From NCBI GenBank assembly GCA_964475005.1, contig CAYYUZ010000006.1:1-56965 (forward strand): a DNA stretch of 56,965 nucleotides. The letters run 5' to 3'. Positions 19,856 to 35,330 of the stretch are shown here, piece by piece. Within the stretch, counting starts at the first letter, position 1. Each line of letters starts with the position of its first letter. The position numbers and the translations under genes are program-made. Source of the DNA: an uncultured Spirochaetales bacterium. GTDB lineage: Bacteria; Spirochaetota; Spirochaetia; JABEVK01. Below the pieces are notes generated by a model. The model was not told the origin of the DNA, did not search any database, and worked only from the letters and a program-made list of their open reading frames with translations.

Positions 19856-20948
19856 GATTCCTCCTACTTTCGAAGGACGCTTGGTAGGACGAATCCCGGT
19901 ACGGAACATCTGGCTCCTCATGCTTTATGCCTCTGATCTTTCTCATTTCTCGGGTCGGTTTGCAGGGCTACTCGAGAATGATCTTGAAGACCTTCCCAAT
20001 CTCATTGGACGGCTGCTCGCGGATGAAGTAGCTCGCAGGTTGGCACGGAACCTATCACTTGGGTATCGACAACGCTCAGAGACAATCGCAAGAGTTCGAG
20101 GCCGAATTGACCTTCTCGCCACAGCCTCTGGCCAACTCATGGATAGGGGCTTGATAGCCTGTCGGTTCGAAGAAATCACAATTGATACTATTAGAAACCG
20201 TTTTGTCCTGTCCGCTCTTGAACGAATCGGTCGATACCGCGTTGATCCTTCAGTTGCACTGGTCTGCCGAAGCCTGGTCACCGATTTAGGGAGGGCGGGT
20301 GTGTCTCGAAGAATGCCATCTCGGGCGGAGCTTGCCAAAGATCAAATCAGCCGAAATGACTCCAGAGATTTGTTTATGCTAGCATTGGCTAGGCTCGCTT
20401 TCGACCTGGCCTTGCCTACCGAGGAATCCGGACTGGTCCACCTCCGCTCCGTCGAACACGATGAACATTGGGTTCGGAAGCTCTTTGAGAAGGCTGTCGG
20501 AGGCTTCTACAGGGTGGAGCTGATACCCGCTGGCTGGGGGATTCACCCCGGCCAGTTGCTGCAATGGCAAATCGCAGAATCTTCGCCGGGAGCGCAAGAA
20601 ATCACACCGAGTATGAGGACCGATATTGTTCTGGACACACCCCTGGGTCATCGAATAGTCATCGATACAAAATTCACTTCTATGGTCACTAGGGGTTGGT
20701 ATCGCGAATCAAGTCTAAAGACAAATTATCTGTACCAGATGTACGCTTATCTCCGATCCCAGGAGCGTCAGGATGATCCTGGAAGCCCCTGGAACACGGC
20801 TACCGGCATCATGCTTCACCCAGCTATCGACAGGAGCTTCGACGAATACTTGGTGATCCAGAACCACCGAATACGATTCGCCACAGTTAACCTTTCTGGA
20901 ACAACGGTTGAGATTCGCCAAGCCCTGCGGAGTCTTGTTTTAGCATGA
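19833..20948 (+). CDS. mcrC: McrC-family PD-(D/E)xK restriction endonuclease subunit
   Basis: IPVRNIWLLMLYA, LFEKAVGGFY, TDIVL...IVIDTKF, YLYQMYAYL; overlaps the mcrB 3' end. Confidence 0.9.
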   Translation: MSSSSDSEIPPTFEGRLVGRIPVRNIWLLMLYASDLSHFSGRFAGLLENDLEDLPNLIGRLLADEVARRLARNLSLGYRQRSETIARVRGRIDLLATASGQLMDRGLIACRFEEITIDTIRNRFVLSALERIGRYRVDPSVALVCRSLVTDLGRAGVSRRMPSRAELAKDQISRNDSRDLFMLALARLAFDLALPTEESGLVHLRSVEHDEHWVRKLFEKAVGGFYRVELIPAGWGIHPGQLLQWQIAESSPGAQEITPSMRTDIVLDTPLGHRIVIDTKFTSMVTRGWYRESSLKTNYLYQMYAYLRSQERQDDPGSPWNTATGIMLHPAIDRSFDEYLVIQNHRIRFATVNLSGTTVEIRQALRSLVLA

Positions 20949-21062
20949 AGCGGCTATCCTCTCCGGTTTGGTAGCCCTCTATATAAGACAGTCCACCTGC
21001 GCTCGGAGAAGAGCGCCATGGCGGGTTGTTCCACTAGGTTGTCTTCCGTGAGAGGGCGAAAA

Positions 21063-21986
21063 TCAGGGAGCCGATAGACTTGAAAGGCTCTTCAGTCTGT
21101 ATGTCGATCTAGTCCGACCATTCTTGAAACTGATGGTGGTCTTGGTCAAAGCAGCTCGGCAATGTTCATTAAAATACTGCTTCGTAAGTACCGTCGCCTC
21201 ATCTTCAGTCAGGTCATCATCGAGTCGTCCAGAGATTGGTTCAGCATCGTCAGGAACAAAGTCAAACTTCCACGATTCGAGGAGGATTCCTTTGCATACG
21301 CCTGTCAGCGATACTTCTGCCTCGACGGTGATCGTACTGGACACCCGAGAAAAGGCTTCTAGAGCCTGTGCTGGCGACAGAATGAAGCGCAGATCGCCAC
21401 TTTCAAGTTGAAGTCCAGCTTTTCCCTTAGAAACAATTTCCAAGAAGCCTTTGAGATTTTGCACAACCCGAGGCGGTGCCCCGTCGAGAGTCGCGGCGAA
21501 ATCCTCGTCGCTCTTTGCCGAAGCGTCGATTAGCCGCGCCACATCGGCCAGGGTGTCGGCTAACTGGTCCTCGGCAAAAAGCTCGTCATCGTCCGATCTG
21601 GTCAGTTCTAGGCCGAATGACCCACGAGGAAGCGCCGTTAGTAGCAGTCTTGACTGCGACTCTCCCGCGATACGGCCGCGAGAGCCAAGCATTCCCCGCC
21701 ACCGATCAGCATATTGGGTCCTAACCATCGTTTGAAAGGGCTCGAGAACCTTCCCTGCAAAAAGTGCGTCGATCCCTTGAGACCCTTGAACAGGTTCTCC
21801 CGAGAAGAACAGCACCACCTTGGCTTCTTTCTGGCCAAGAGGTAAGGTTTCGATTTGTCCACGAATCTCCGTTTCTCGTTCCCTGTACGAGACTGACATA
21901 ATAGGATGGTCCCCTGCCAGCGCTTTAAGTCGTTGGACTTCTAACAATTGAGTCCTAAGAAAATCTCGATGGGTTCGGGTACTCAC
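21063..21986 (-). CDS. Conserved hypothetical protein, partner of the DUF6932-like NTase
   Basis: 307-aa ORF, GTG start overlapping the upstream stop (GTGA); soluble; F.G.PV.GS.GI and LLT...GSFGLEL motifs. Confidence 0.75.
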   Translation of the reverse strand: MSTRTHRDFLRTQLLEVQRLKALAGDHPIMSVSYRERETEIRGQIETLPLGQKEAKVVLFFSGEPVQGSQGIDALFAGKVLEPFQTMVRTQYADRWRGMLGSRGRIAGESQSRLLLTALPRGSFGLELTRSDDDELFAEDQLADTLADVARLIDASAKSDEDFAATLDGAPPRVVQNLKGFLEIVSKGKAGLQLESGDLRFILSPAQALEAFSRVSSTITVEAEVSLTGVCKGILLESWKFDFVPDDAEPISGRLDDDLTEDEATVLTKQYFNEHCRAALTKTTISFKNGRTRSTYRLKSLSSLSAP

Positions 21987-22546
21987 AGTTGCAGATCCTG
22001 AAGAAACTTAAGTGCCATCTTGTCCTCAGCGGGAGTGTTCAATTCGACCCGGAGCATCCCTTTCCATACTCCTTGGCGGTTATGTGAAAAAAGCATTGCC
22101 CAGCATCGGGCCTGATCGACCGTCAATGCGGGATGGAAGGCGGCGTCCATAGGGTAATGATCGACATGAAAGACGGCTTTTGACAACCTGAAGTCCGCGA
22201 ATTCCGGAAAAGCTACGACAAGCCTCTGCTGGAACGCGTTATCGTAGCCCCAATAGAAGGTCACAACGTCGATATCGCCTGGAGGCCGGCCTTCCTGTGT
22301 CTCGATGTCCTCGGTGAAACTCCCGTCAATCCATTGGAACCCGTTGACGACCCCTTCGTCATGAATTCTTTCTCGAAAAGCCAAGAACCCAATCAAGATT
22401 TCCTTCCGCTTGGACGAGGTTGCAAACCGTTCACATAGGGCAAGGGTGGTACAGGGGTAGGGAGACAATTGGTCTGATCGTCGTGGGTCCCCGAGGTGCG
22501 GTGGAAGGACTAGGTTGTGGTCGAAATCAGGAATTGCCGTCGACAT
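21983..22546 (-). CDS. DUF6932-like protein, putative minimal pol-beta-fold nucleotidyltransferase
   Basis: QWIDGSFTE...PGDIDVV, a GS plus DxD catalytic signature; N-terminal P.F....LPP. Confidence 0.7.
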   Translation of the reverse strand: MSTAIPDFDHNLVLPPHLGDPRRSDQLSPYPCTTLALCERFATSSKRKEILIGFLAFRERIHDEGVVNGFQWIDGSFTEDIETQEGRPPGDIDVVTFYWGYDNAFQQRLVVAFPEFADFRLSKAVFHVDHYPMDAAFHPALTVDQARCWAMLFSHNRQGVWKGMLRVELNTPAEDKMALKFLQDLQL

Positions 22547-22899
22547 AGTTCATATTAAGGTTGCTTAGGACGTTCTGTCCACTCATAAGCGGGGGAGGAG
22601 AAGATTGGGGGGCTGTCGAAGGTTTTGGACTTTGGCCACCGAGTCATGTTGCTCTTCTAACCCCGTTTACCTAACCGTTTACCAAAAGCGGGTTGACCGA
22701 TCCTGAAACCCGGTGATAGCCTCTGAACGGTAGCGGTAGCTACTGGCTGTTCTTGGTCAGACTGGTGGGAAAGAGCCTCTGAAACCTCTTGAATGGTCCT
22801 GACTGGCGGTGAAGTAGCACCCTTACGAGCTTGAGGTGCTGGTATGTGTCGTGACACTTCTTGAACCGGACACTGGCGGACCAAGAAGGGGGTGCAACG

Positions 22900-23520
22900 A
22901 TGAGATGGAAATCTTGGATCGACATCCACAAGGGGCTCACCCCGCTTCTGATCCTGACGTTGATAGTCCTTTTCAGAGCCTGGGACAATACGACGGCTTG
23001 GCTCTATCTAGGTCTGCATGGCACCTACGGGGTGCTGTGGGTACTCAAAAGCCGAATCTTTGGCGACAAGACCTGGGAAAGGAGGGTTCCTTTCTTGTTA
23101 GGCATCGGAACCTGGATCGGACTGAGTCTGTTCTGGGTGGCCCCCTACTTGATCGTTAGCCAACGCCTAGCTGCTCCAGCCTGGCTGATGGGCGTTTCAA
23201 CGTTCGCCTTCACGCTTGGCGTCTTCTTACATTTCGCCTCAGACATGCAGAAACATACTTCTCTCGCCCTGAACCCCGGACACCTGATCACCACAGGCCT
23301 TTTTCGGCGCACACGAAATCCTAACTACCTTGGCGAGCTCTTGATCTACGCAGGATTCAGCTCTCTTGCGATGTCTTGGTTCCCGATAACCGCAGTTCTT
23401 GGCTTCCTCGCCTTCATTTGGGTTCCAAACATGCTTCGCAAGGACAAGTCCCTTTCCCGCTATCCCGAGTTCGCTGAGTATCGACAGAAATCCAAACTCC
23501 TGATTCCCTTCGTGGTTTGA
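22900..23520 (+). CDS. DUF1295 / isoprenylcysteine methyltransferase-like membrane protein
   Basis: Hydrophobic; LITTGLFRRTRNPNYLGE motif. Confidence 0.8.
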   Translation: MRWKSWIDIHKGLTPLLILTLIVLFRAWDNTTAWLYLGLHGTYGVLWVLKSRIFGDKTWERRVPFLLGIGTWIGLSLFWVAPYLIVSQRLAAPAWLMGVSTFAFTLGVFLHFASDMQKHTSLALNPGHLITTGLFRRTRNPNYLGELLIYAGFSSLAMSWFPITAVLGFLAFIWVPNMLRKDKSLSRYPEFAEYRQKSKLLIPFVV

Positions 23521-24009
23521 TGCCAGCTTCGGCGAACGCTGACCCGGGTGTTCTTGGAGGCGCCCTAGATCAGAAGGCGAATTGTACGACTTCACAAAAA
23601 AGGCCAATCAGGAAGGCGGCGCGGAGGGTTTAAGGAAGAACTACGCCGCGCCGGGACTCTGACTGACGTCGACATCCGGTTCCGGCATTGGGCCACCACT
23701 GTTTGTGAGCGTTTGACATTACCCACTTTCGTGGTGGGCACTACCCACAAAAAGCGTCCTTGGATTCAGTCCAGCAAGTTTTCCAAGTACCTTCCTTGCA
23801 TGCCGGTGAGGACGTGGATCGGATTGCCAGAATCAAGGAACTAGGCTACGAGAACCTCGTCATGGCGGATCAAGGCTTTGTTCAAGCCCTCTCCGAGAAT
23901 GGACCGAGGTTCTCGCAGGCTTTTTCAGGTATGGTCTGGGAACAAAAAATCAAGGGAATTCAATAACGAGTGAAGTTCTTCGGAAAGATTCTTACTGTGT
24001 GACACGGTT

Positions 24010-24753
24010 TCAGCCGTTGATCTGCGAAAAGACCTCGGCATAGTTGCCTTTCGACTCAGCGAACCTCAGGAACTTCACCCGCTCAACGAGCACTTCCTTG
24101 ACGCCCTGATCGGAGCTCAAGATTTCGATCACCTCTGCGATGAAATCTTTCAATGGCATGGCGTAGGGGTCGTGCGCCTGATGTGATCCCATGAGTTCGG
24201 TCTGAACGTACGGAGGAGCGATTTCGATGACTTGAACGGATGAGCCTGCCAATTGGTGTCGGAGCGACTCGGAATAGGAGTGGATAGCAGCCTTGGTTGC
24301 GCTGTAGGTGATAGTTCCAGCCATGGGAACGAAAGCTAACCCTGACGACACGGTCAAGATGGCGGCATGGACCTGGCCCAAGAGGTGGGGAAGCAGCGGT
24401 GTAGTGAGTCGGATCGGACCGAGGAGGTTGGTCGCGATGGTTGCCTCAGCCACGTCAGAGTTTCCTGCCTTCGAGTCTTCCGGCCGCATGATACCGGCAT
24501 TGTGGATGACGACGTTGAGGGCGGGGAAGTCAGCCTTGAGCTTCTCGGCGAAGGCTGTGATTGAACTTGCGTTTTCGATGTCGAGCACAACCGACTTCAT
24601 CCCCGGGTTGACCTGGGTCACTTCGTCGAGCAGAGCCTTTCGGCGCCCTGCGATAATGACTTGGTTTCCTAAAGCGTGGAAGGCTTCGGCCAACCCTCGT
24701 CCGATCCCCGATCCCCCACCGGTGATCAAGATCGTATTTCCTTTCATCTGCAT
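24010..24753 (-). CDS. Short-chain dehydrogenase/reductase (DltE-like)
   Basis: TGGGSGIG, NAG, YSATK catalytic motif. Confidence 0.93.
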   Translation of the reverse strand: MQMKGNTILITGGGSGIGRGLAEAFHALGNQVIIAGRRKALLDEVTQVNPGMKSVVLDIENASSITAFAEKLKADFPALNVVIHNAGIMRPEDSKAGNSDVAEATIATNLLGPIRLTTPLLPHLLGQVHAAILTVSSGLAFVPMAGTITYSATKAAIHSYSESLRHQLAGSSVQVIEIAPPYVQTELMGSHQAHDPYAMPLKDFIAEVIEILSSDQGVKEVLVERVKFLRFAESKGNYAEVFSQING

Positions 24754-24892
24754 GATGATACTCCTTCAATTTGGGACATAACTTAAGGATAGCCACGGCG
24801 GTTCCGACAGGCTTTCCCAAAAGAAGCGAGTTATTGCCTAATCATGCCGAAGAACTTGTCCCAGGCGAGTTCCGGATCTATCATATTTCAAT

Positions 24893-25792
24893 ATGAACTT
24901 TCACGACAGGCTCATCGAGGCGGCTCTCCGCTGGGCGGAATCGGGCAGTTCGAATCTCTGGATGGGGAAGGTAAACGTTCAGAGAATCCCGATGCCGACT
25001 GAACCACAACCTATGGTCTATGAGCCGATTGTGGCCCTGGTGCTCCAGGGCAAAAAGCGCACAATGATCGGTCACCAAACCCTGGAGTATGGAGCGGGTG
25101 AAGTATTTGTGGGAGCGATAGACATGCCGGTTCTTTGGCAGGTCATCCAGGCCAACGCGAGCGAACCTTTTGTTTCGGTGAGCCTTTTCATTGACCCGAG
25201 CAAGCTCCAGGGTATCCTACTCGATATGGAACCCAGCGATCTGCCTGCCTTTGCCTCAGGTTTTGGAGTCACCCCGGTCGAAGAGGAAGTGGTCGAAGCC
25301 TTCTCGAGACTCTTGAGAGTCTTCGCGCGCCCCCAAGACGTGAACTTCTTGGCGCCACTGGTAGAACGGGAGATTCTTTTCCGCCTCCTCCAAGGGCCTC
25401 ACGGTGCAATGCTCAGGCAAATGGCTGTCTCTGGTAGTCGTCTGACACAGGTCAGGACGGCCCTTACTTGGCTGAAGGCTAACTTTGCCGTTCCCATCCA
25501 CATCGACGATCTTGCCTCCTTGACGGGCATGAGCGTCTCCGTATTCCATCGGCATTTCAAAGCCGTTACCGCGATGACTCCTATCCAATATCAGAAACAA
25601 CTGAGGCTCCATGAGGCACGTCGTCGCTTGATGGAGGAATCGGGGGACGCTACGGGCGTTGCGTTTTCGGTGGGCTACGAAAGTCAATCGCAGTTTACCA
25701 GGGAGTACTCACGACTCTTTGGCGCACCCCCCATTCGAGACGTCAGACGCTTGCATCGCTTACGTGCAGATCGATTTTCGGCGAACACTTGA
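24893..25792 (+). CDS. AraC family regulator with AraC_N domain, divergent from the SDR gene
   Basis: LVLQGKK, MSVSVFHRHFKAVTAMTPIQYQKQLRL, VGYESQSQFTREYSRLFG. Confidence 0.93.
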   Translation: MNFHDRLIEAALRWAESGSSNLWMGKVNVQRIPMPTEPQPMVYEPIVALVLQGKKRTMIGHQTLEYGAGEVFVGAIDMPVLWQVIQANASEPFVSVSLFIDPSKLQGILLDMEPSDLPAFASGFGVTPVEEEVVEAFSRLLRVFARPQDVNFLAPLVEREILFRLLQGPHGAMLRQMAVSGSRLTQVRTALTWLKANFAVPIHIDDLASLTGMSVSVFHRHFKAVTAMTPIQYQKQLRLHEARRRLMEESGDATGVAFSVGYESQSQFTREYSRLFGAPPIRDVRRLHRLRADRFSANT

Positions 25793-26110
25793 GTAGCCCT
25801 CTGGTGTGGAGCGACAACCCACTCTGGTCTCAAATCTGGCTTATCTCGAGAGCCGGTTGGACCGCGAAGCCGCGCGCACGCTCCCCCTCGGTGCCTCCGG
25901 CAAGGCCATCGTAAACCGTGAGACACGTTCGCCGCCTTCCTTGAGCACGGCGACTGGACGACGCTACTTCGTTGGAACATGATGATGTAAGGGTTACATA
26001 CTGCGGGTTCGCAGAACAGGTTTTTGGGCCCGGCCGGGTCACAGTGATTCCTTTGCACAAATTCGATCCATGAGAAAATGGGAATCTCCACGAATCCTTC
26101 TCGGCAAGCC

Positions 26111-26137
26111 TGTCGATTTTCTTCTCTCTGGTTCGTC
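26111..26137 (+). promoter_or_regulatory. Putative ECF42-type sigma promoter
   Basis: TGTCGA-N17-CGTC upstream of a YciI/DGPF-family gene, the known ECF42 target context. Confidence 0.5.
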
Positions 26138-26169
26138 GACTGGAATGACTGATGAAAAAGGAGAAACAC

Positions 26170-26335
26170 ATGAGAGTCATGGTGATCGTCAAAGCCACGA
26201 AGGATTCCGAAGAGGGTGTCATGCACAGCACGCAACTACTCACGGAAATGGGTGCGTTTAATGAAGAGTTGGTCAAGTCGGGCATGATCCTAGCCGGCGA
26301 CGGCCGCCACCCGAGCAACATGGGGGTGAGGGTCG
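26170..26335 (+). pseudogene. Truncated YciI/DGPF-family gene
   Basis: MRVMVIVKATKDSEEG...MGAFNEELVKSG...G..P...GVRV, then homology stops before the DGPF motif where CRISPR-like sequence begins. Confidence 0.75.
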
Positions 26336-26661
26336 CCCCACGGCCATTCTTGCACCACTTGACGGGACACTACCACCTACAAAACCAATTACTGTCTTCC
26401 CCCGCCCGTGGGGTGTTTCCATACCCTAGTTTCAGCAGTGGGTATCCCAGGAGTCTTCCCCACGGCGGTGGGGGTGTTTCTAGTCCTCAAGCCAAAGGTA
26501 GATGTCACCGGAGGTCTTCCCTGCGCTGGTTGGGGTTTCTTGAGCGAAAAAGTCAGTAGTCTGCTGAGGGTCCAGACTTCCCTTTGCTGCTGGGGATGTT
26601 TCCGGTCTAAGGGGACCTTGCGGCCCCCTCTGTTGCCTTCCATCGGGCGCTCGGAAGTCTC
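26332..26661 (+). CRISPR. Degenerate orphan CRISPR array, type I-E-like repeat GTCTTCCCCACGGCGGTGGGGGTGTTTC
   Basis: Clear repeats start at 26394, 26453, 26514, 26575 (periods 59/61/61; spacers 33-35 nt); weak partial copies at 26332 and 26635; CCCC..GGGG hairpin; no cas genes in the window. Confidence 0.85.
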
Positions 26662-26889
26662 GGGAGAGTATCAAGTTCACATCAGACATGTGTCAGGAGT
26701 CGCACAGAAAGTCGCACTTTCGAGTTGGCTTTTGGGTTATTGCCGGTTGACTGCCACAGGGAACCGGGACTAGCCTCAAGATGCCAGGACGCACCATTCT
26801 CCAGCTGTTAGAAGGAGTTACTCTATCGGCGCAAGGAATTTTTGGTGCATCTTGGTTCGTTGTGATACGTCCCGATATGGGTCCAAATT

Positions 26890-26914
26890 GGTTTCAGGTA
26901 CTAGTGCCGCGAGG
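26890..26914 (+). repeat. 25-bp direct repeat, copy 1 (duplicate of the integrase 3' end)
   Basis: GGTTTCAGGTACTAGTGCCGCGAGG matches 28941-28965 at 23/25. Confidence 0.8.
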
Positions 26915-26993
26915 CATGAAGGTTTGAGCAAGGACCTCCGCTCCTTCCCGAGCGGTGTCTCGGGTCTAGGTCATTTTGTGGTAAAGTACAGGA

Positions 26994-27671
26994 ATGAACA
27001 AGAAAGAGCTTTGGCTTCGCCTCTCGGGTTACCAGTTTGACCATATTGTCCTACCAAAGTTTCAGGACCGAATCGTTGCAGTGTTCGGCGGTGATGACCC
27101 ATCGACCCACGCTTTCGTAGCCAAGATCTCGAAGAAGCTCGGGTGGGATTCGAAATTCACGATGAGAGCCCTGCGCGAGTACAAGAAGTTCGTCTATTTG
27201 GGGGTGGTTGCCGGGTTCCCTGTGACTCCTCCCAAACTTCTCGACCAGGTCTGGCATGAACATTTGTTGTTTACCAAAGCTTATCGTGAGTTCTGTTCGG
27301 ATATCCTAGAACGTCCTTTCGACCATAATCCAGAACTTCTGCCTTCGGACGAACAGACGGAGGTCTACCAGGCCCAGTACCAAGCTACCCTTGACCTCTA
27401 CCAGACGGAGTTTGGGTACGAAGCACCTGTTGCTGTCTGGGGAACCCCAAAGTTTGAGGCAGTGTACAGGAAACCAGAGCCACAACTAACAGCTGGCGAC
27501 TTCTCTCCCTCATATTCGGCCTATCACGACTATTCCGGCGACCCCCCACTCGTGCTCTGGAGCGATCTGGATCTTGCCGGCACTTTTGATAGCGATCCAG
27601 GTTCGGATTCCGGCGGCGGTGGCTCGTCGGATGGTGGTGGGTGTAGTTCGGGATGCGGTGGAGGGGATTAG
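26994..27671 (+). CDS. Glycine-rich-domain-containing protein (GRDP/TIGR04222-related)
   Basis: GW....A..EYKKF, TPP..LDQVWHEHLLFT..Y..FC...HNP motifs; Gly/Ser/Cys tail GGCSSGCGGGD. Confidence 0.75.
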   Translation: MNKKELWLRLSGYQFDHIVLPKFQDRIVAVFGGDDPSTHAFVAKISKKLGWDSKFTMRALREYKKFVYLGVVAGFPVTPPKLLDQVWHEHLLFTKAYREFCSDILERPFDHNPELLPSDEQTEVYQAQYQATLDLYQTEFGYEAPVAVWGTPKFEAVYRKPEPQLTAGDFSPSYSAYHDYSGDPPLVLWSDLDLAGTFDSDPGSDSGGGGSSDGGGCSSGCGGGD

Positions 27672-27685
27672 GCCTTCCTTGGGTC

Positions 27686-28792
27686 CTAGGACAGGAAATG
27701 CGGACCGGCTATTGCCGACATACTAAAGGTCAAGCGTATGTCGAGATTCTCACGAATCCTCCCGGCTGCAACATCATCAAAGACTCGAACGACTACCCGC
27801 AGGTTCGGTTGGCAAGTCCGCGCGTTCAGCGCGATTTCAATGTTTGCGAAGTCGTCATTCACCACGGCAACTACCGCCCGAGCCCGATGTGCCCCCACGT
27901 CCCGTAGAACTTGAGGGAGACGAGCATCTCCGATATAGACATCAATCCCAAGAGCTCGAAGATGGTCAGCGGCTGGAAGCCCGTCGGTCTTCTCTACAAC
28001 AATGACTTTTTCTTTTCTTGCAACTAAATCCTCGGCGATACAGGCTCCCAGTCGACCCAGGCCGCAAAGAATGATGTGGTTCCTGTTAGGATAGACTTTG
28101 CGACCCTGCGATAGTTCTGCCCGGCGGCTCAGCATAGACTGGGTTGTCAGTGAGAAGATGGCCCAAATAAAGACTGCGGAACCAAGAATCAGCAGGATGG
28201 CGACCACCTTGCTCATGGCGGCGGCGCTGAGGAGATTCAGATCGCCATACCCTACCGTTGATGCGGTAACGACCACGAAATATAACGAGTCGAGCCAGCT
28301 GAACCTTTCAGCGATGTGAAAGTACGTCGTTGCGAGGGCGAGAACAATACCAAAGGTCACCAGAAGCCGCCGCAAAAGGGGGTCCCGTCGGCTACGTCTC
28401 CTCGTGCTGGGCCGAGAGTGACCCGGTAAGGGAGCTCGATCTAGCGGAACCTCCAGGGCTCTCAGGAAAGATGGTGCAGCGAGAGCTGCCGGATTTAGGA
28501 TTGTGACTTCGGGGTGCGCGGCGCGGATTGGAGCCGCGACATTCTCGTTGAACAATGCCGCCACAATCTGGAGTTCGGACTTGAAAGAAAGGAAGGCGAT
28601 CAAGAGTTCGAGGTTCCGGTCGTCATTGTCGTCGACGAGAATCGCCTTGACCCACTGTGTCTCGCCGACTTTCGGATGCTCCGGAACTCCTTCATGACAC
28701 CGTTCGACCATGCTCCCCTGTTCGACCAGGAGGTCAGCAATCCGTTGAGCCAGATGTCCAGAGCCAGCAACCAAAAAGCACCTTGAGTTCAT
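27686..28792 (-). CDS. Potassium channel protein with TrkA-N/RCK domains
   Basis: Pore signature TASTVGYGD between two TM helices; GSGHLA and CGLGRLG Rossmann motifs. Confidence 0.85.
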   Translation of the reverse strand: MNSRCFLVAGSGHLAQRIADLLVEQGSMVERCHEGVPEHPKVGETQWVKAILVDDNDDRNLELLIAFLSFKSELQIVAALFNENVAAPIRAAHPEVTILNPAALAAPSFLRALEVPLDRAPLPGHSRPSTRRRSRRDPLLRRLLVTFGIVLALATTYFHIAERFSWLDSLYFVVVTASTVGYGDLNLLSAAAMSKVVAILLILGSAVFIWAIFSLTTQSMLSRRAELSQGRKVYPNRNHIILCGLGRLGACIAEDLVARKEKVIVVEKTDGLPAADHLRALGIDVYIGDARLPQVLRDVGAHRARAVVAVVNDDFANIEIALNARTCQPNLRVVVRVFDDVAAGRIRENLDIRLTFSMSAIAGPHFLS

Positions 28793-28940
28793 GTCTCCAA
28801 TCTAGCACACCATTGAGAGTGGCGATCCATCATGCTGGAAGCATTCGAGTCGGGAATGTTTGACAGACAACCCTGTTCAGGAGGCTACAAGTAGCCGCAA
28901 CGAGGCAAAATCAAGCACAAACCCTACTGGACCCGGTTAC

Positions 28941-28965
28941 GGATTCAGGTGCTAGTGCCGCGAGG
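28941..28965 (+). repeat. 25-bp direct repeat, copy 2 (spans the integrase stop codon)
   Basis: GGATTCAGGTGCTAGTGCCGCGAGG; TCA at 28945-28947 is the integrase stop. Confidence 0.8.
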
Positions 28966-30141
28966 TCCATGGGTCTTCGGCGGTTTCGAACCAACGGAAC
29001 TCGGGACCCTGAAAGAATCAGTTCCATTCATTCTTGCCAGGGCCTCCTGAAAGTCGACCACACCGACCCTCGTGTATCTCTCGGTCATCGTCATGTCAGA
29101 ATGACCGGCCAGCCGTTGTACTACGAAGTCGGGGATTCCTTGGCTGCGGGAATTGCTAACGAAAAAGTTTCGGAGTCCGTGAAAACAGATTGCTCGATCC
29201 TCACGGGCCTTCGCGCCAACTCCGATCTTGTCTAGAATTCGCGTGAAGCCTCGTCGAATGGAAACCAGCTCCATAGGTCGATCAACGCGGTCGTCGTTGA
29301 ACAGAACGAACGGTGAGGCCCGGAGGTTCATTGTCTGGACGGTCTTCAGAATGTCCAGGACGACCTGAGGGCAGGGTACTTGACGGGACTTCGACCATTT
29401 AGGAAGCTTGACACCTTCCTCGGCAGTCACGAAATTGTTCCTCACTTCAATGGTCGAAGTTCCAGCGTTGACGTCTTCCCATTGCAACCCCCTGGCCTCA
29501 CCAGCCCGTAGGCCACAAAAAGATGCCAAGAGGATAGCAGCCTTGATTCGAGGACTTTCCACTAAGGCAATGATCTTCGATAGTTCTTCATTCGAGAGGA
29601 TTCCCCGGAGCTTGGGGCGATCGAGCACCCTTTGGACAGTGACGAGCGGATCCGGTTGGCCGTGCTTTCGGAAAAAATCGGCGACCGCAACTTTCAGAGA
29701 ACAGAGAGCTGTGTTGATCCTGTGCCCGCTAAGTCCCTTTTCACTCAGAGCAAGAACAAGTTTCTCCACGGAGCCGGGTGAAAGTTCTCCCAGTCGTGTT
29801 TCGCCGAGGGTCGGGATAACATGGACTTCGACGGCAGACAGGCAGTCTCGAACGTAGTGGACCGACAAGGCACGACCTCTGAGCGCTTTTCCCTTCGCGT
29901 AGTCAGAGTTCATTGTCCAAAACTCTTTGAGGAAGTCGGCTAGCCGGGGATTTTCACTATTTGGAAGAACCCCAAGCTCAAGTTTGTTCTGAGCAAGTCT
30001 TTCAGCCTGTTTTCTGGATTTCGCCTCTGGGAGGCTAATGGTCCGAAAGACTTTGCCTTCGGAGTCGAGAAACCGGACAGACCAGGACTTCTTTCCTGTT
30101 CTGCCGATCCTCTGGAACACTCGAAACGGTAACGCATCCAT
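28945..30141 (-). CDS. int: Tyrosine recombinase / phage-type integrase
   Basis: GLRAGE, HGLR, LAGHS, RYT catalytic residues; GGAG RBS before ATG 30141; adjacent to a tRNA 3' end. Confidence 0.93.
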   Translation of the reverse strand: MDALPFRVFQRIGRTGKKSWSVRFLDSEGKVFRTISLPEAKSRKQAERLAQNKLELGVLPNSENPRLADFLKEFWTMNSDYAKGKALRGRALSVHYVRDCLSAVEVHVIPTLGETRLGELSPGSVEKLVLALSEKGLSGHRINTALCSLKVAVADFFRKHGQPDPLVTVQRVLDRPKLRGILSNEELSKIIALVESPRIKAAILLASFCGLRAGEARGLQWEDVNAGTSTIEVRNNFVTAEEGVKLPKWSKSRQVPCPQVVLDILKTVQTMNLRASPFVLFNDDRVDRPMELVSIRRGFTRILDKIGVGAKAREDRAICFHGLRNFFVSNSRSQGIPDFVVQRLAGHSDMTMTERYTRVGVVDFQEALARMNGTDSFRVPSSVGSKPPKTHGPRGTST

Positions 30142-30157
30142 ACGATTCTCCATTCCG

Positions 30158-30178
30158 TGGTAACACATTTGGTAACAC
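30158..30178 (+). repeat. Tandem TGGTAACAC x2 (12-bp period), candidate integrase arm-type sites
   Basis: Direct repeats at 30158-30166 and 30170-30178 between int and the tRNA. Confidence 0.5.
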
Positions 30179-30248
30179 GGTTGTGATTCTCGATGGTTTG
30201 CGTTTTCGCTCAACCTGATAAGTTCTTCCAACAGAAGAACTTGCTAAA

Positions 30249-30321
30249 TAGCAGGGCTAGGACTCGAACCTAGGACCTTCGGGTTATGAGCCCGACGAGC
30301 TGCCAACTGCTCCACCCTGCG
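30249..30321 (-). tRNA. tRNA-fMet (CAT)
   Basis: Reverse complement CGCAGGGTGGAGCAGTTGGCAGCTCGTCGGGCTCATAACCCGAAGGTCCTAGGTTCGAGTCCTAGCCCTGCTA; GGG/CCC anticodon stem and unpaired C1 typical of initiator tRNA; CCA not encoded. Confidence 0.95.
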
Positions 30322-30339
30322 TCGTTTGTGTTGGACAGC

Positions 30340-31413
30340 TTAACGAAGGACGGGTACTGTGTCAAGCGCCCGCTGGAGTGCGGTCAGACACCGCTGGTTT
30401 TGCTGGAGCGTTCCGACGGTGATCCGAATCCAGTCGGGCAAGCCGAAGCTGGTCATCGGACGGATGGTGACGCCCTGGTCGGCCATGGCCGAGAACACGG
30501 CCTGCGCGTCGCGATCAACCTTGACGGCGATGAAGTTGGCCTGCGTAGGGTAGAAGAACAGCCCCAGCCTTGCAAGATTCTCGTTCCAGAATTGTTTTCC
30601 CTCACGGTTCACCTTCCGCGATTGTTCGACAAAGCTCGTGTCGTCCAGGGCGACCCTAGCGGCCACCTGCCCCAACGTGCCGACGTTAAAGGGCTGCTTT
30701 ACCACCGACAACTGCGCGATGATCTGGGGAGAGGCCACTGCAAATCCGACCCTCAAAGCCGCCAGACCGTAAACCTTGGAGAAGGTTCTGAGCACTAGCA
30801 GATTGGGAAACCGTTTGAGAAGTTTCATGGAGTCGGGGTAGTCGGCGGCTTCGACGTAGTGCACGTAGGCTTCGTCGAGCACGACAAGCACAGACGGGGG
30901 AACGGCGGCTAGGAAGGCCTCAAGCACAAGACTTGAAAAGTAGCCGCCTGTGGGATTGTTGGGATTGCAGAGGAACACCATTTTGGTGTGCACATCGATC
31001 GCGTCAGCGATGGCGGTGAGGTCGAAGGCTCCGTCTTTCAGGGGCGTGTACTTGACCGATCCGCCAAACAGTCTGACGGCAAAGTGATACTCAGAAAACG
31101 TCACGTCAGCGGTGACGGCGTTGTCCCCCACACGGATGTAGGCGCCCGCGATCAGCGTCAGCACTTCGTCGGACCCATTGCCCAGCAGAATTTGGTCGGC
31201 TGCCACGCCCAAAACCGGCGCCAGAGCGTCCCGAAGCGCAGAGGCCGCCCCATCGGGGTAAAGATGGACCGAGTCGACCGCCGCGATCAGCGCCTTGAGG
31301 GCGAGGGGGCTGGGCCCCAGCGGATTTTCGTTCGACGCCAGTTTCAGGGCGCCGGGCATCAGCTTTCCTGGGGAGTACGGCTTGAGGTCTCGCAGGTCTT
31401 CTCGGAGTTCCAT
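30340..31413 (-). CDS. hisC: Histidinol-phosphate aminotransferase
   Basis: LASNENPLG, GNGSDE, CNPNNPTG, DEAY, RTFSKVYGLAALRVG. Confidence 0.93.
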   Translation of the reverse strand: MELREDLRDLKPYSPGKLMPGALKLASNENPLGPSPLALKALIAAVDSVHLYPDGAASALRDALAPVLGVAADQILLGNGSDEVLTLIAGAYIRVGDNAVTADVTFSEYHFAVRLFGGSVKYTPLKDGAFDLTAIADAIDVHTKMVFLCNPNNPTGGYFSSLVLEAFLAAVPPSVLVVLDEAYVHYVEAADYPDSMKLLKRFPNLLVLRTFSKVYGLAALRVGFAVASPQIIAQLSVVKQPFNVGTLGQVAARVALDDTSFVEQSRKVNREGKQFWNENLARLGLFFYPTQANFIAVKVDRDAQAVFSAMADQGVTIRPMTSFGLPDWIRITVGTLQQNQRCLTALQRALDTVPVLR

Positions 31414-31445
31414 CTTCTTGTTCTAGCTGACGCAGGCCCAGGGGG

Positions 31446-32141
31446 TCAAGGCGAACCTCCCGGTGTTAACCAGCCTTCGAAGATCAAGTAGAAGCAAAGC
31501 GTGAGTCCCAAATAGCTCAAGTTGTAGAAGAAGTCTTCTAAGGGAATCGTTCCGATGCGGAGTCCCACGATGGCCTTGGGGTTGTACCAAATCGTTGGCA
31601 AGGCGGTGTAGATTCCATCGACCACGACGAAGGCCACGAAGCAGAGGGCCAGCCAGATCCAGAAGGTCGATACCCCCATGAGCGCTGGTTGAGCGAGGGC
31701 CATCGTAGACAGGAAGATGGCGACCGATCCCATCGCGAGCACGGTGTACGCAAGACGCCGAACAATCCAGGCTGCCACCACAAACACCAGCGAACCAGCA
31801 AACAAGGAAATTGGGTTCACGTTGGCGAACACAACGGGGCTGAACCACGCCCGGACCACTTCGAACAGAAACAGGCACGCGTACGGAACTGTGATAAAAA
31901 AGAAAAACTCCCCAACCGGCAGGTAAAAAAGCCGGAAGGTTCCGGTGAACTCGGGATTGAACTTCCAGTCCCCGCGCCGAACGACCAGCGAATCCCAAAA
32001 CAGGTAGAGAAACCCCGTGATCGCCGACGCGAGGCCGACGGCTGGCCAGTGGGTCCAGAAATGGACCTTGGCCTCGAACGAGGCGGCGAAGGGACCGGCA
32101 AGAACGGCAAGAGCAATCAACGAGTACACATGTTTCTTCAC
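31446..32141 (-). CDS. Membrane lycopene cyclase domain protein (tandem CrtYc/Yd-type domains)
   Basis: WD...V.RGDWKFN....G......LPVGEFFFF and IPLEDFFY; GTG start overlapping the crtB stop. Confidence 0.8.
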   Translation of the reverse strand: MKKHVYSLIALAVLAGPFAASFEAKVHFWTHWPAVGLASAITGFLYLFWDSLVVRRGDWKFNPEFTGTFRLFYLPVGEFFFFITVPYACLFLFEVVRAWFSPVVFANVNPISLFAGSLVFVVAAWIVRRLAYTVLAMGSVAIFLSTMALAQPALMGVSTFWIWLALCFVAFVVVDGIYTALPTIWYNPKAIVGLRIGTIPLEDFFYNLSYLGLTLCFYLIFEGWLTPGGSP

Positions 32142-32983
32142 GACAAACTCCCATTGTCCGATTTGGAGGGAAAGCAGAAGAGGTTGGCCACCGCTGTGGC
32201 CAGAATCCTGGGACGAGAAGGCTTGATCTTTCGTCTCCACACTTCGAGTGGATCCTTCATGATGACTCGGGCTGTCCAGTTGTACAGGTCGGAGGCCGTT
32301 TTGATGGCCACTCGAAACCGCCACGGCAGGAATCGGTAGCCCGCCTCTCCTCCTTTTTGCCAGGCTTGATACTGTCTTGTCCAGGTCCGCATGAAGTCGG
32401 CAAACGCTTGGGGATTGGCCAGGGCGGTCTCGCGAGAGAGGTCCTTGAGGTGCCCGTCCAAGGGGAGGTAGCGTCGGCCGAGGGCGTGGTCCTCGGCGAC
32501 GTCACGGAGAAAGTTGATGAACTGCATGCTTCGGCCAAGGAGCTGCGCCGCTGGCCGTGCCTCGGACGGGATTCCCAAGATGCTGATCATGAACAAGCCG
32601 ATGACCTCGGCCGACCCGAAGGTGTAGTGAAGCACATCGTCGAGGGTGTCGAAGGGACTCGCCTTCAGGTCGCTCTCCATGGCGTCCAGAAAGGCTTCTG
32701 TCCACTGGTTCTCGAAGCCCCGTCGCCGCGAGAGCTCGACGAAGGGGTCGATGACCCAGTCCCCGGCCGGAGTTCCCGCGACGGCGGCCCGCCAGCGCTC
32801 TCGAAAGGCAAAGAACTCCTCGGGATGAACGGGTTGATCGTCGACAAGATTGTCGGCCACACGAACAAAAGCGTAAAACGTCGAGATGTCCCGGCGGAGG
32901 GCCTTCGGAAAGAGCCTACTGGAATTGTAGTAGGTCGTGCTTCCTTGGCGGAAGATCTGCTGGTGGAGCTGGTCAATGTCCAC
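32138..32983 (-). CDS. crtB: Phytoene synthase
   Basis: FYAFVRVADNLVDD, FLDAMESDL, LGRSMQFINFLRDVAED...GRRYLP. Confidence 0.92.
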   Translation of the reverse strand: MDIDQLHQQIFRQGSTTYYNSSRLFPKALRRDISTFYAFVRVADNLVDDQPVHPEEFFAFRERWRAAVAGTPAGDWVIDPFVELSRRRGFENQWTEAFLDAMESDLKASPFDTLDDVLHYTFGSAEVIGLFMISILGIPSEARPAAQLLGRSMQFINFLRDVAEDHALGRRYLPLDGHLKDLSRETALANPQAFADFMRTWTRQYQAWQKGGEAGYRFLPWRFRVAIKTASDLYNWTARVIMKDPLEVWRRKIKPSRPRILATAVANLFCFPSKSDNGSLS

Positions 32984-34510: not shown

Positions 34511-35200
34511 CTAGTAAAGATAAATTCTGGCCGGCGCCGCCCGGCCAATGCGGATGGGTCGGGCGAGCCCATCCAGTTCCTTTTCGAGTTCGGCCACGGT
34601 GAACCCGCGTCGGATGGACAGGCGGCCGTCGGAAAACGCGAGACTCCCTTTGATCAGCAGACCCGTGAAGATGGTGTAGCCCACGTAAGCCCAGAACGAC
34701 CGTCGCAGGTCGTTGAGCAAGAAACCGTGCCTGGCATGGATCAGACAAAGCTCGACGGCGCGGCGCACCTGCGGGTAGGTGAAATGATGCAGAGTGTGGT
34801 TTGACACGATGAAATCAAAGTCACCCAGCGTGGCAAGGTCAAAGATCGAACCGGCTATCGGGGTAATTTCCGGGTAGTCACGGCACAAGTGCTGTGCCCA
34901 CGGCAAGACCCTGGCGTCGAGATCGAGGGCGGTGACCTTCACCTTCAGCCCCTTCTTGCGGCACAGGCGAACCACTGCGCGGTCGATGTCGCCACCGCCC
35001 GACCCGAAGTCGAGCACGGTCCAGAGGCGATCGGGCTCGGCCAGCATTTTGGGCAAAAGATGTTTTTTGAATAGAGGGATCGCCGAGGCGAAGAGCCGAT
35101 TGAGCAGGTCGAACTGCTCAATGGTTTTCTTCAGGCGTTTGGGATCGGCATCTTGCCGGTCCATCAGCTCCTCTTCGTACGATCGTTGGTTCAGGTTCAC
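34511..35200 (-). CDS. Class I SAM-dependent methyltransferase
   Basis: RS..EELMD, VLDFGSGGGD, NHTLHH, NDLRRS, DG.LSI.RGFT; start uncertain (35200 or 35308). Confidence 0.8.
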   Translation of the reverse strand: MNLNQRSYEEELMDRQDADPKRLKKTIEQFDLLNRLFASAIPLFKKHLLPKMLAEPDRLWTVLDFGSGGGDIDRAVVRLCRKKGLKVKVTALDLDARVLPWAQHLCRDYPEITPIAGSIFDLATLGDFDFIVSNHTLHHFTYPQVRRAVELCLIHARHGFLLNDLRRSFWAYVGYTIFTGLLIKGSLAFSDGRLSIRRGFTVAELEKELDGLARPIRIGRAAPARIYLY

Positions 35201-35330
35201 AAAGAAGAGCGGATGACGCGGCAAGGGACCCTCCCAGAAAGCCCATCCTAGCGCAAAAACGCCGGGATGGGCATGGGGGCTAGTAGGTGGTGACATTCCC
35301 TTATCCACTTCATACGAAGCGGCAATTCCC

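What the first reader, a model, noticed from the sequence alone, without database searches (positions are those of the whole stretch)
26332..26661. Degenerate cas-less type I-E-like mini-array on a mobile island
Four clear and two weak repeats keep an about 61-bp period although their sequences diverge, with the best copy (26453) in the middle. Spacers: CATACCCTAGTTTCAGCAGTGGGTATCCCAGGA, TAGTCCTCAAGCCAAAGGTAGATGTCACCGGAG, TTGAGCGAAAAAGTCAGTAGTCTGCTGAGGGTCCA. It may be a decaying relic, but MGE-borne degenerate repeats are also known to act as RNA anti-CRISPRs (Racr), as regulatory CRISPR-like RNAs (CreA type), or as mini-arrays that borrow host Cascade against competing elements.
Basis: partly seen in the sequence, partly recalled or inferred. 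Interest (0 to 1): 0.72.

Follow-up and report, generated by a model that had tools for sequence, protein, structure and literature searches.

The report
Decayed stump of a CRISPR array
This is a real but broken leftover of a type I-E CRISPR array, fused to a truncated gene inside a defence island, with no cas genes nearby and no sign that it still works, so it is ordinary genomic debris rather than a new RNA device.

Summary
Four repeats (26394, 26453, 26514, 26575) sit 59-61 nt apart on the + strand. They belong to a widespread 28-nt repeat family, GTCTTCCCCAC-NNNN-GTGGGGGTGTTTC, with a 61-nt period, which lies next to type I-E cas genes in intact loci. R2 (26453) is a perfect family member. 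R1 carries two 1-nt deletions, R3 and R4 six mismatches each, and R5 eleven. R0 keeps only a 9-mer in phase. The 57-kb window has no cas gene and no leader. The array starts exactly where a YCII-family gene is cut off after codon 55. It lies in an integrase/tRNA-Met island carrying Druantia III and McrBC. Hairpins are lost without compensatory changes. The spacers have no significant match in the window, in phages or in plasmids. Virus-borne solitary repeats and mini-arrays of the same family keep their hairpins and handles, unlike this one. The best explanation is the trailer-end stump of a lost I-E locus, left by a deletion. Use as a borrowed guide, an RNA anti-CRISPR or a crRNA-like regulator is not excluded, because the host genome and transcripts were not available, but no test supports it.

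The parts
26170..26334 (+). N-terminal 55 codons of a YCII-family gene (pseudogene). It keeps its AGGAG ribosome-binding site and ATG. The reading frame then runs on through the array to a stop at 26559.
   Evidence: tblastn: residues 1-55 of full-length YCII proteins P0001/P0014 match 26170-26334 at 75-80% identity, and nothing else in the window matches the C-terminal part. Pfam YCII is weak, E 0.0086.
26332..26360 (+). R0: partial repeat at the junction with the YCII fragment. Only CCCCACGGC (26336-26344) is repeat-like; the 3' half is unrelated.
   Evidence: The 9-mer is identical to R2 and 122 nt (2x61) upstream of it. The ungapped score is at background. No hairpin: -3.3 kcal/mol, z -0.28.
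26361..26393 (+). S0, spacer-like, 33 nt
   Evidence: No match beyond chance.
26394..26419 (+). R1, 26 nt. This is the commonest family repeat (loop GCCC) with two 1-nt deletions (the A of CCCCAC, and one G of GGGGG). The stem is reduced to 4 bp.
   Evidence: score 19; -7.0 kcal/mol against -11.7 for the canonical repeat.
26420..26452 (+). S1, spacer, 33 nt
   Evidence: Its 3' 20-22 nt match a Toprim primase gene of IMGVR_UViG_3300011116_000444 (L249 7918-7939), but the 5' 13 nt do not, and 80 relatives match no better. Inconclusive.
26453..26480 (+). R2, 28 nt. Perfect at all 24 family-conserved positions, loop GGCG, 7-bp hairpin. With its TGTTTCT tail it also looks like an intrinsic terminator.
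   Evidence: 24/24; -12.6 kcal/mol; terminator-like site 26457-26474. This exact 28-mer is absent from 185,579 species genomes.
26481..26513 (+). S2, spacer, 33 nt
   Evidence: No match.
26514..26541 (+). R3, degenerate repeat: 6 of 24 conserved positions changed, stem interrupted by a U-U mismatch, 3' handle altered.
   Evidence: 18/24; -6.4 kcal/mol.
26542..26574 (+). S3, spacer-like. The boundary with R3 is uncertain by 2-3 nt.
   Evidence: An 11-nt match at 30203-30213 (-) upstream of the integrase gene is at chance level (E 0.28) and does not extend.
26575..26602 (+). R4, degenerate repeat: 6 of 24 conserved positions changed. Only the outer 3-4 stem pairs remain.
   Evidence: (18/24).
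26603..26634 (+). S4, spacer-like, 32 nt
   Evidence: Only chance-level matches (E of 3 or more).
26635..26661 (+). R5, terminal and strongly degenerate repeat (13/24). It keeps G-CTTCC at its 5' end, as terminal repeats of this family usually do.
28945..30231 (-). Tyrosine recombinase (phage-integrase family) marking the right end of the island.
   Evidence: Pfam Phage_integrase, E 7.4e-18.
30249..30321 (-). tRNA-Met (CAT), the presumed integration site of the island.
   Evidence: ARAGORN and Rfam.

Best explanation
The element is the non-functional trailer-end stump of a former type I-E CRISPR array.

Proposed history: a I-E CRISPR-Cas locus, probably one more cargo module of this defence island, lost its cas operon, its leader and the younger part of its array. 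The same deletion or rearrangement cut the neighbouring YCII gene after codon 55 and joined it to the inside of the array.

What remains is five spacer units flanked by six repeat copies. These were probably already graded in quality, as the old ends of arrays are, and they have decayed further by point changes and 1-nt deletions. With no leader, no Cas1-Cas2 and no Cas6e or Cascade in cis, the stump neither acquires spacers nor yields crRNAs.

If it is transcribed at all, it is as the tail of the YCII pseudogene transcript. The one intact hairpin (R2, followed by UGUUUCU) would then most likely just act as a terminator-like stem.

Shown: repeat-family membership, I-E association of the family, absence of cas and leader from the window, the YCII truncation at the array edge, loss of hairpins without compensation, and absence of detectable targets.

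Inferred: the deletion history, the lack of processing, and the lack of function.
For: 1. The family is real and is I-E. The pattern GTCTTCCCC-N7-TGGGGGTGTTTC hits more than 119 genome loci with a 61-nt period (1,424 of about 1,500 spacings). In L058 the array follows cse1, cse2, cas6e, cas7, cas5, cas1 and cas2 in the same orientation.
2. The window has no cas. tblastn with the seven L058 Cas proteins gives nothing better than E 0.65. Pfam and PADLOC on the large ORFs find no Cas protein.
3. There is no leader. YCII homology runs 26170-26334, the repeat phase starts at 26332-26336, and the missing YCII C-terminus is nowhere in the window. That is a deletion scar, not a simple insertion.
4. 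The copies have decayed. Scores are 24, 19, 18, 18, 13 and background. Indels change the spacing to 62/59/61/61/60. Hairpin energies fall from -12.6 to between -6.4 and -8.8, or to none. The three inner stem pairs are broken in three of six copies scored with no excess pairing over shuffles (72.5% against 65.8%; 48 of 500 shuffles as high).
5. In 41 intact arrays of the family only the last one repeat, rarely two, is degenerate, and it keeps its 5' half. The window shows the same polarity (R2 to R5) but is more degenerate than any of them.
6. Virus-borne solitary repeats and 2-3-repeat mini-arrays of this family keep at least 20 of 24 positions, the hairpin and the GTGTTTC handle. The window's copies do not, apart from R2.
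7. No target was found. Spacer seeds match the window no better than shuffled spacers (best 11-13 of 15; null mode 12). There is no phage or plasmid hit below E 3.
Against: 1. R2 is intact and R1 nearly so, while R3 and R4 carry six changes each. Splitting events 2 against 12 between the two pairs gives p of about 0.013 in a post-hoc binomial test. Uniform neutral decay from identical copies does not predict this. I explain it by pre-existing trailer-end degeneracy, but selection on R1-S1-R2, or on R2 alone, would also produce it.
2. R0 keeps the 5' part of a repeat and not the 3' part. A single clean deletion breakpoint inside R0 would leave the opposite.
3. The 330 nt have not been deleted, although the island is otherwise compact.
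4. The host genome outside this window was not available, so a I-E system acting in trans cannot be excluded.
5. All five other assemblies carrying the locus are identical across the array, so neither drift nor constraint can be measured.
Confidence: 0.72

Rival explanations
1. It is a cas-less mini-array that borrows a host type I-E system. The island transcribes the array from the YCII promoter. A chromosomal Cas6e/Cascade processes at least the R1-S1-R2 unit, and perhaps R2-S2-R3, into a crRNA that targets a competing phage or plasmid.
For: The orientation fits read-through from the YCII start. R2 is a perfect family repeat and R1 retains loop, handle and a 4-bp stem. R1 and R2 are significantly better kept than R3-R5 (counts). 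Twenty to 22 nt of S1 match a viral Toprim primase gene, a typical spacer target. The island is a defence island.
Against: The S1 match covers only the PAM-distal part. The seed-side 13 nt do not match (1 of 13), and 80 relatives of that gene match no better. About 0.1 chance 20-mer hits are expected per scan, by my rough estimate of the collection's size, and four scans were run. R1 has lost one stem base and one G at the stem/handle junction. R3, which would give S2 its 3' hairpin, is broken. No host I-E system is known. The exact R2 repeat occurs in none of 185,579 species genomes. Virus-borne mini-arrays of this family keep all their repeats near-perfect.
Confidence: 0.08
2. It is an RNA anti-CRISPR (Racr-like decoy). 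R2, the one intact repeat, is expressed as a solitary repeat unit that ties up Cas6e/Cas7 of a resident I-E system and so protects the island from CRISPR targeting.
For: Racrs are repeat mimics on mobile elements, and I-E Racrs have been shown to work (PMC10651486). R2 has a canonical hairpin and handle. True solitary units of this family exist in viral contigs (L333, L339, L343).
Against: The element is not solitary; it is embedded in a periodic array of decayed copies, which a decoy does not need. No + strand promoter-like site was found in 25700-27100, whereas Racr candidates were selected for a promoter within 250 bp. There are no acr/aca-like neighbours; the neighbours are an AraC regulator, a 225-aa UCP032817-like protein and a K+ channel. 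The element sits in a chromosomal defence island rather than a phage. The host repeat is unknown.
Confidence: 0.05
3. It is a crRNA-like regulator (CreA or crlRNA type). One degenerate repeat-spacer unit guides Cascade, by partial pairing, to repress a promoter of a toxin or of one of the island's defence systems.
For: Degenerate repeats plus a defence-island context resemble the CRISPR-supervised defence systems described in bioRxiv 10.1101/2024.12.27.630466.
Against: Those units lie inside or beside cas operons, and none is present here. Their spacers show about 11-16 bp of seed pairing next to a PAM. Here the best seed matches anywhere in the 57 kb equal those of shuffled spacers. The single 11-nt match upstream of the integrase gene is at chance level, straddles the repeat/spacer boundary and does not extend.
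Confidence: 0.03
4. The remnant has been exapted as a plain structural RNA/DNA element. R2's GC-rich hairpin and U-rich tail are kept as the terminator of the upstream transcript, insulating the downstream 225-aa gene, with no link to CRISPR any more.
For: R2 (26457-26474 plus TGTTTCTAGT) and R3 meet the intrinsic-terminator pattern. This would explain why R2's stem is intact while the other copies decay.
Against: Three terminator-like sites against 1.6 expected in shuffles is not an excess. The upstream gene is a pseudogene, so there is little to terminate. There is no comparative evidence.
Confidence: 0.1

Closest known systems
Orphan or degenerate CRISPR arrays left after loss of cas genes (for example cas-less CRISPR2 of Enterococcus faecalis, PMC4580645 and PMC5491264; other cas-less remnant arrays, from my own knowledge)
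   Same: A periodic repeat-spacer structure of a recognisable subtype, no adjacent cas genes, and degenerate terminal repeats.
   Different: Here nearly every copy is damaged, the leader is replaced by a truncated protein-coding gene, and only five units remain. E. faecalis CRISPR2 keeps intact repeats and can function when Cas9 is supplied in trans.
Type I-E CRISPR arrays of the GTCTTCCCCAC-N4-GTGGGGGTGTTTC repeat family (for example Allopseudospirillum japonicum DSM 7165, L058)
   Same: Repeat consensus, 28 + 33 nt = 61-nt period, and orientation. R2 is identical at all conserved positions.
   Different: No cas operon, no leader, a loop variant (GGCG) not seen in any species genome searched, and five of six copies degenerate.
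RNA anti-CRISPRs / solitary repeat units (Camara-Wilpert et al. 2023, PMC10651486)
   Same: A CRISPR-repeat mimic without cas genes on a mobile element. Solitary units of the same repeat family exist in viral contigs (L333, L339, L343).
   Different: Not solitary, most copies lack the hairpin, no predicted promoter, no acr/aca neighbourhood, and chromosomal defence-island cargo rather than a phage.
CreTA and crRNA-like regulatory RNAs (crlRNAs) supervising toxins and defence systems (bioRxiv 10.1101/2024.12.27.630466)
   Same: Degenerate repeat-like sequences flanking spacer-like sequences, close to defence genes.
   Different: No cas operon alongside, and no seed-complementary promoter target with a PAM in the window.
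Virus- and plasmid-borne mini-CRISPR arrays (reviewed in PMC11656645; examples of this family in L335, L337, L338, L344, L348)
   Same: A short cas-less array of a host-type repeat on a mobile element.
   Different: Those keep at least 20 of 24 conserved positions, the stem and the 5' handle in every copy, and have 1-3 spacers. This one has five units, most with broken stems or handles.

Membership tests
Type I-E CRISPR array (GTCTTCCCCAC...GTGTTTC repeat family) | Repeat sequence matches the family consensus. | tested here: met
   R2 24/24. R1 19, R3 18 and R4 18 of 24, against a null maximum of 19. Family defined.
Type I-E CRISPR array (GTCTTCCCCAC...GTGTTTC repeat family) | Regular period of about 61 nt with unique spacers of 32-33 nt. 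| tested here: met
   Spacings 62, 59, 61, 61 and 60. Spacers are unrelated to one another.
Type I-E CRISPR array (GTCTTCCCCAC...GTGTTTC repeat family) | Repeats near-identical within the array, with only the last one degenerate. | tested here: not met
   Mean column identity 72%. Intact arrays show one, rarely two, degenerate terminal copies.
Type I-E CRISPR array (GTCTTCCCCAC...GTGTTTC repeat family) | Adjacent I-E cas operon (cas3, cse1, cse2, cas7, cas5, cas6e, cas1, cas2). | tested here: not met
   tblastn with the L058 Cas set gives E of 0.65 or more across the 57 kb. Pfam and PADLOC find none. The rest of the genome is not available.
Type I-E CRISPR array (GTCTTCCCCAC...GTGTTTC repeat family) | Non-coding leader with a promoter upstream of the first repeat. 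| tested here: not met
   The sequence upstream is YCII coding sequence up to 26334. No + strand promoter-like site.
Type I-E CRISPR array (GTCTTCCCCAC...GTGTTTC repeat family) | Transcription and Cas6e processing into crRNAs. | not testable with these tools
   No expression data. Hairpin predicted intact only in R2.
RNA anti-CRISPR (Racr / solitary repeat unit) | Encoded on a virus or other mobile element. | tested here: met
   Integrase plus tRNA-Met island. The island is identical in a strain whose flanking core differs.
RNA anti-CRISPR (Racr / solitary repeat unit) | Solitary repeat that mimics the sequence and hairpin of the host's own CRISPR repeat. | tested here: inconclusive
   R2 mimics the family, but it is one of six periodic copies, and the host's repeat is unknown.
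RNA anti-CRISPR (Racr / solitary repeat unit) | Own promoter within about 250 bp upstream. | tested here: not met
   No sigma-70-like site on the + strand in 25700-27100. This is a weak test, because the organism's promoter type is unknown.
RNA anti-CRISPR (Racr / solitary repeat unit) | Frequent clustering with acr/aca genes. | tested here: not met
   The neighbours are an SDR, an AraC regulator, the YCII fragment, a UCP032817-like protein and a K+ channel.
RNA anti-CRISPR (Racr / solitary repeat unit) | Inhibits the cognate CRISPR-Cas system. | not testable with these tools
   Needs an interference assay.
CreA / crRNA-like regulatory RNA | Located within or next to a cas operon. | tested here: not met
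   No cas genes in the window.
CreA / crRNA-like regulatory RNA | Spacer-like part with about 11-16 bp of seed pairing to a promoter flanked by a PAM. | tested here: not met
   Best seed matches are 11-13 of 15, the same as for shuffled spacers. The 11-nt hit at 30203-30213 is at chance level. Only this window was searched.
MGE-borne functional mini-array | All repeats retain the hairpin and the 5' handle. | tested here: not met
   compared with the viral examples.
MGE-borne functional mini-array | Spacers match competing elements. | tested here: inconclusive
   Nothing significant in phages or plasmids. A partial 20-22-nt match of S1 in IMG/VR does not extend. The collections probably lack this habitat's elements.

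The most novel reading that the evidence does not exclude
The R1-S1-R2 unit, or R2 alone, is kept by selection on a defence island. It would work with a type I-E system encoded elsewhere in the host, either as a single guide against a competing element with a Toprim primase gene or as a repeat decoy that shields the island. R3-R5 would be the decaying remainder. That would be a cas-less CRISPR module travelling as cargo of a Druantia/McrBC island.
Probability: 0.08. Interest if true: 0.55.

Novelty: new member of a known kind. Interest (0 to 1): 0.17.

Why it matters
As a relic, it matters only as a small piece of natural history. It shows that this tRNA-Met defence island, or its donor, once carried or bordered a type I-E CRISPR-Cas locus. 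It also shows that defence modules are lost by deletions that leave array stumps and truncated neighbouring genes. Such stumps are a known source of false positives when screening mobile elements for RNA anti-CRISPRs, crRNA-like regulators and mini-arrays. The comparison made here (decayed hairpins and handles, against the intact ones in viral solitary units of the same family) is a practical way to tell them apart. If the minority reading were true, it would add a chromosomal defence island to the list of elements that carry cas-less CRISPR guides or decoys.

Tried and rejected
- Looked for the source genome with an 88-nt exact piece of the array in 185,579 species genomes: no hit. The nearest HisC is 76% identical, in a MAG labelled Spirochaetaceae. 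The host's cas content therefore could not be checked.
- Looked for diverged copies of the island:
  - Exact-protein look-ups returned only contigs 99.8-100% identical, with no difference in the array.
  - Relatives of the 225-aa downstream gene (at most 59% identity, Bacteroidota) have no YCII gene or repeat nearby.
  - Relatives of the AraC gene (at most 54%, JGI metagenomes) also have none.
  - The locus of the closest YCII homologue is not syntenic.
- The exact R2 28-mer occurs in no species genome.
- Rfam gave nothing at gathering thresholds or at E up to 10.
- Spacers against phages and plasmids: only hits at E of 3 or more.
- Four 20-mer scans of IMG/VR gave one hit, the 3' part of S1. 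It did not extend in that contig or in 80 relatives. I do not count it as a protospacer.
- CreA/crlRNA-type self-targets in the window: at chance level.
- A fuzzy-regex scan timed out and was replaced by a vectorised score.
- A search for an attL copy of the tRNA end found nothing longer than 12 nt, so the left end of the island is not defined.
- 'Chance periodicity' and 'protein-coding repeat' were both rejected. R2 is a perfect member of a CRISPR repeat family. The reading frame through the array is only a read-through from the truncated YCII gene.

Full report
**1. What is there**

Reading 25900-27100 and an independent repeat search show four similar copies on the + strand, with start-to-start spacing of 59, 61 and 61 nt:
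- 26394: GTCTTCCCCCGCCCGTGGGGTGTTTC
- 26453: GTCTTCCCCACGGCGGTGGGGGTGTTTC
- 26514: GTCTTCCCTGCGCTGGTTGGGGTTTC
- 26575: GACTTCCCTTTGCTGCTGGGGATGTTTC

Tandem Repeats Finder does not report them because they are too diverged.

**2. Is it more than chance, and what family is it?**

Most hits are long arrays.
- In those loci the consensus is GTCTTCCCCAC-NNNN-GTGGGGGTGTTTC followed by a variable T or C.
- 1,424 of about 1,500 start-to-start distances are exactly 61 nt.
- In Allopseudospirillum japonicum (L058) the array lies directly downstream of, and in the same orientation as, cse1, cse2, cas6e, cas7 (CT1975), cas5, cas1 and cas2 (CT1978). The family is therefore type I-E.

I scored every window position against the 24 conserved positions:

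| Copy | Score of 24 |
|---|---|
| R2 (26453) | 24 |
| R1 (26394) | 19 |
| R3 (26514) | 18 |
| R4 (26575) | 18 |

In 200 order-2 Markov simulations the best score anywhere was 16-19. Four such hits in phase on one strand cannot be chance.

The two weak copies:
- R5 (26635) scores 13/24, a value reached by about 6% of background positions. It is marginal on its own.
- R0 (26332) is at background in an ungapped comparison. It does share the exact 9-mer CCCCACGGC with R2, precisely 122 = 2x61 nt upstream. Its 3' half is unrelated to the repeat.

Nothing is in phase beyond these six copies.

**3. State of the copies** (alignment)
- R1 is the commonest family repeat (loop GCCC) with two single-base deletions.
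- R2 is perfect, but has a loop (GGCG) that occurs in no species genome as this exact 28-mer.
- R3 and R4 each differ at 6 of 24 positions, and R5 at 11.

Predicted hairpins:

| Copy | Energy (kcal/mol) |
|---|---|
| Canonical repeat | -11.7 |
| R2 | -12.6 |
| R1 | -7.0 |
| R3 | -6.4 |
| R4 | -8.8 |
| R0, R5 | no canonical stem |

Counting the six stem pairs across the copies gives 72.5% paired, against 65.8% in shuffles, and 48 of 500 shuffles are as high. The three inner pairs are broken in three of six copies scored, and there is no compensatory pattern.

The damage increases from R2 towards R5. This matches the polarity of intact arrays of the family, where the trailer-end repeat is degenerate and keeps its 5' half. 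But in 41 intact arrays only one, rarely two, terminal copies are affected (L067 is the nearest parallel). The window's array is more decayed than any of them.

**4. Surroundings**

The array begins exactly where a gene ends prematurely.
- An ORF with a good AGGAG ribosome-binding site starts at 26170.
- Its first 55 codons are 75-80% identical to full-length YCII-family proteins.
- Homology stops at 26334, the repeat phase starts at 26332-26336, and the missing C-terminal part (about half of the gene or more) is nowhere in the window.
- The frame simply reads on through the array to 26559.

So there is no leader, and the junction looks like a deletion or rearrangement scar rather than an insertion.

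No cas gene is present in the 57 kb:
- tblastn with the seven L058 Cas proteins gives nothing better than E 0.65.
- Pfam and PADLOC scans of the large ORFs find no Cas protein.

The array lies in an island whose right end is a tyrosine integrase (28945-30231, - strand), 18 nt from tRNA-Met (30249-30321, - strand). The island carries:
- a serine resolvase (8482-9042)
- Druantia type III: DruH-like 10340-13141 and DruE 13138-17784, E 1.7e-292
- McrB/McrC (18032-20948)
- a DUF6932/PDC-M63A candidate pair
- an SDR with a divergently transcribed AraC regulator
- a 225-aa UCP032817-like gene and a K+ channel

**5. Relatives**

Exact-protein look-ups found the locus in five other assemblies. All are 99.8-100% identical, with no difference in the array.

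In L122, the stretch corresponding to window 16994-31317 (the right half of the island, the tRNA and most of hisC) is identical to the window. The next 2.4 kb of core genes carry 30 differences. This suggests recent spread of the island by recombination, but it says nothing about constraint on the array.

No diverged homologous island could be found:
- The source genome is not among the species genomes.
- The closest HisC is 76% identical.
- Relatives of the flanking 225-aa and AraC genes are at most 59% and 54% identical, and have no YCII gene or repeat nearby.
- The locus of the closest YCII homologue is not syntenic.

**6. Tests of the functional readings**

Guide against other elements:
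- The five spacers give no hit better than E 3 in 50,697 phage and 72,556 plasmid records.
- Four exact 20-mer scans of IMG/VR gave one hit. The 3' 20-22 nt of S1 match a Toprim primase gene (L249 7918-7939).
- The 13 seed-side nucleotides do not match (1 of 13).
- Eighty relatives of that gene match no better.
- About 0.1 chance 20-mer hits are expected per scan, by my rough estimate of the collection's size. I count this as inconclusive.

crRNA-like regulator (CreA/crlRNA; features taken):
- There is no cas operon.
- The best seed matches of any spacer anywhere in the window (11-13 of 15) equal those of shuffled spacers.
- An 11-nt match upstream of the integrase gene (30203-30213) is at chance level, straddles the repeat/spacer boundary and does not extend.

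RNA anti-CRISPR (features):
- R2 alone would qualify as a repeat mimic.
- But it is not solitary, no + strand promoter-like site precedes it, and no acr/aca-like genes are nearby.

Viral contigs do contain this repeat family as true solitary units (L333, L339, L343) and as 2-3-repeat mini-arrays (L335, L337, L338, L344, L348). In all of them every copy keeps at least 20 of 24 positions, the stem and the GTGTTTC handle. That is unlike the window.

**7. Interpretation**

The simplest account of all this is the trailer-end stump of a type I-E array. Its cas operon, leader and younger units were removed by a deletion that also truncated the YCII gene. Further slow decay followed.

It should have no CRISPR activity. 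At most, R2's hairpin followed by TGTTTCT, which meets the terminator pattern, ends read-through from the pseudogene.

Three things do not fit perfectly:
- R1 and R2 are clearly better preserved than R3 and R4: 2 against 12 changes, post-hoc p of about 0.013.
- R0 keeps the 'wrong' half for a single clean breakpoint.
- The stump has not been deleted.

Pre-existing trailer degeneracy explains the first. The other two remain unexplained. They are why I leave about a quarter of the probability to the alternatives: a borrowed guide 0.08, a decoy 0.05, a regulator 0.03, and a terminator exaptation 0.10.

**8. Novelty and score**

Orphan, degenerate CRISPR remnants are well known. This is a new example in an uncultured lineage. 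It has a tidy deletion scar and a defence-island context. Interest is low (0.17). It would rise to about 0.55 if the host proves to carry a matching I-E system and R1-S1-R2 or R2 is processed or active.

Noticed in passing
window 10340-17784 (+): Druantia type III defence system. A DruH-like 933-aa protein (weak, N-terminal match only, E 1e-11) is followed by a 1548-aa DruE helicase (PADLOC DruE3, E 1.7e-292; Pfam DEAD, Helicase_C and MZB).
   Followed up: partly
window 18032-20948 (+): McrBC-type restriction pair. The 607-aa protein has Mrr_N plus an AAA_5 GTPase-like domain, and the overlapping 391-aa (371 by gene call) protein is McrC. As I recall, Druantia III remnants also sit next to mcrBC in the E. 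coli K-12 immigration-control region.
   Followed up: partly
window 21063-22546 (-): Two-gene module: a DUF6932 protein (PADLOC candidate PDC-M63A, E 1.3e-11) with an overlapping 307-aa partner that has no family match. Possibly another defence candidate.
   Followed up: no
window 16994-33711 versus L122: A contig from another sample is identical to the window over 16994-31317 (island, tRNA-Met and most of hisC). It differs at 30 sites in the next 2.4 kb of core genes, 22 of them clustered in 33507-33711. This suggests recent exchange of the island between strains, or a patchy recombination history.
   Followed up: partly
window 8482-9042 (-) and 30226-30330: A serine resolvase lies near the probable left end of the island, but no direct repeat of the tRNA-Met 3' end longer than 12 nt exists in the window. 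The left boundary (attL) is undefined, so the island may no longer be excisable.
   Followed up: partly
L335 1647-1736; also L337, L338, L344 (IMG/VR contigs): A conserved two-repeat I-E mini-array in several viral contigs. The first repeat is altered in its first 5 nt and in the stem (CCATTCCCCGCATACGTGGGGGTGTTTCT), the second is canonical, and a (CT)n tract lies upstream. L333, L339 and L343 carry true solitary repeats of the same family. These are better Racr or mini-array candidates than the window's element.
   Followed up: partly
L249 7247-8183 (IMGVR_UViG_3300011116_000444): A viral DnaG-like primase, apparently split into a zinc-finger ORF and a Toprim ORF. The Toprim ORF contains a tandem GGGTATCCCAG duplication (LGIPAVGIPG). 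The 3' 20-22 nt of spacer S1 match this spot.
   Followed up: yes
window 26994-27671 (+): A 225-aa UCP032817-like protein with a Gly/Ser/Cys-rich tail. Its closest relatives in the species genomes are mainly Bacteroidota (Chitinophagaceae, at most 59% identity). The flanking hisC is closest to a MAG labelled Spirochaetaceae. The gene was probably acquired horizontally.
   Followed up: no
window 34511-35308 (-): A 265-aa ORF with a weak PADLOC match to mad2 (MADS system component, E 2e-9), outside the island.
   Followed up: no
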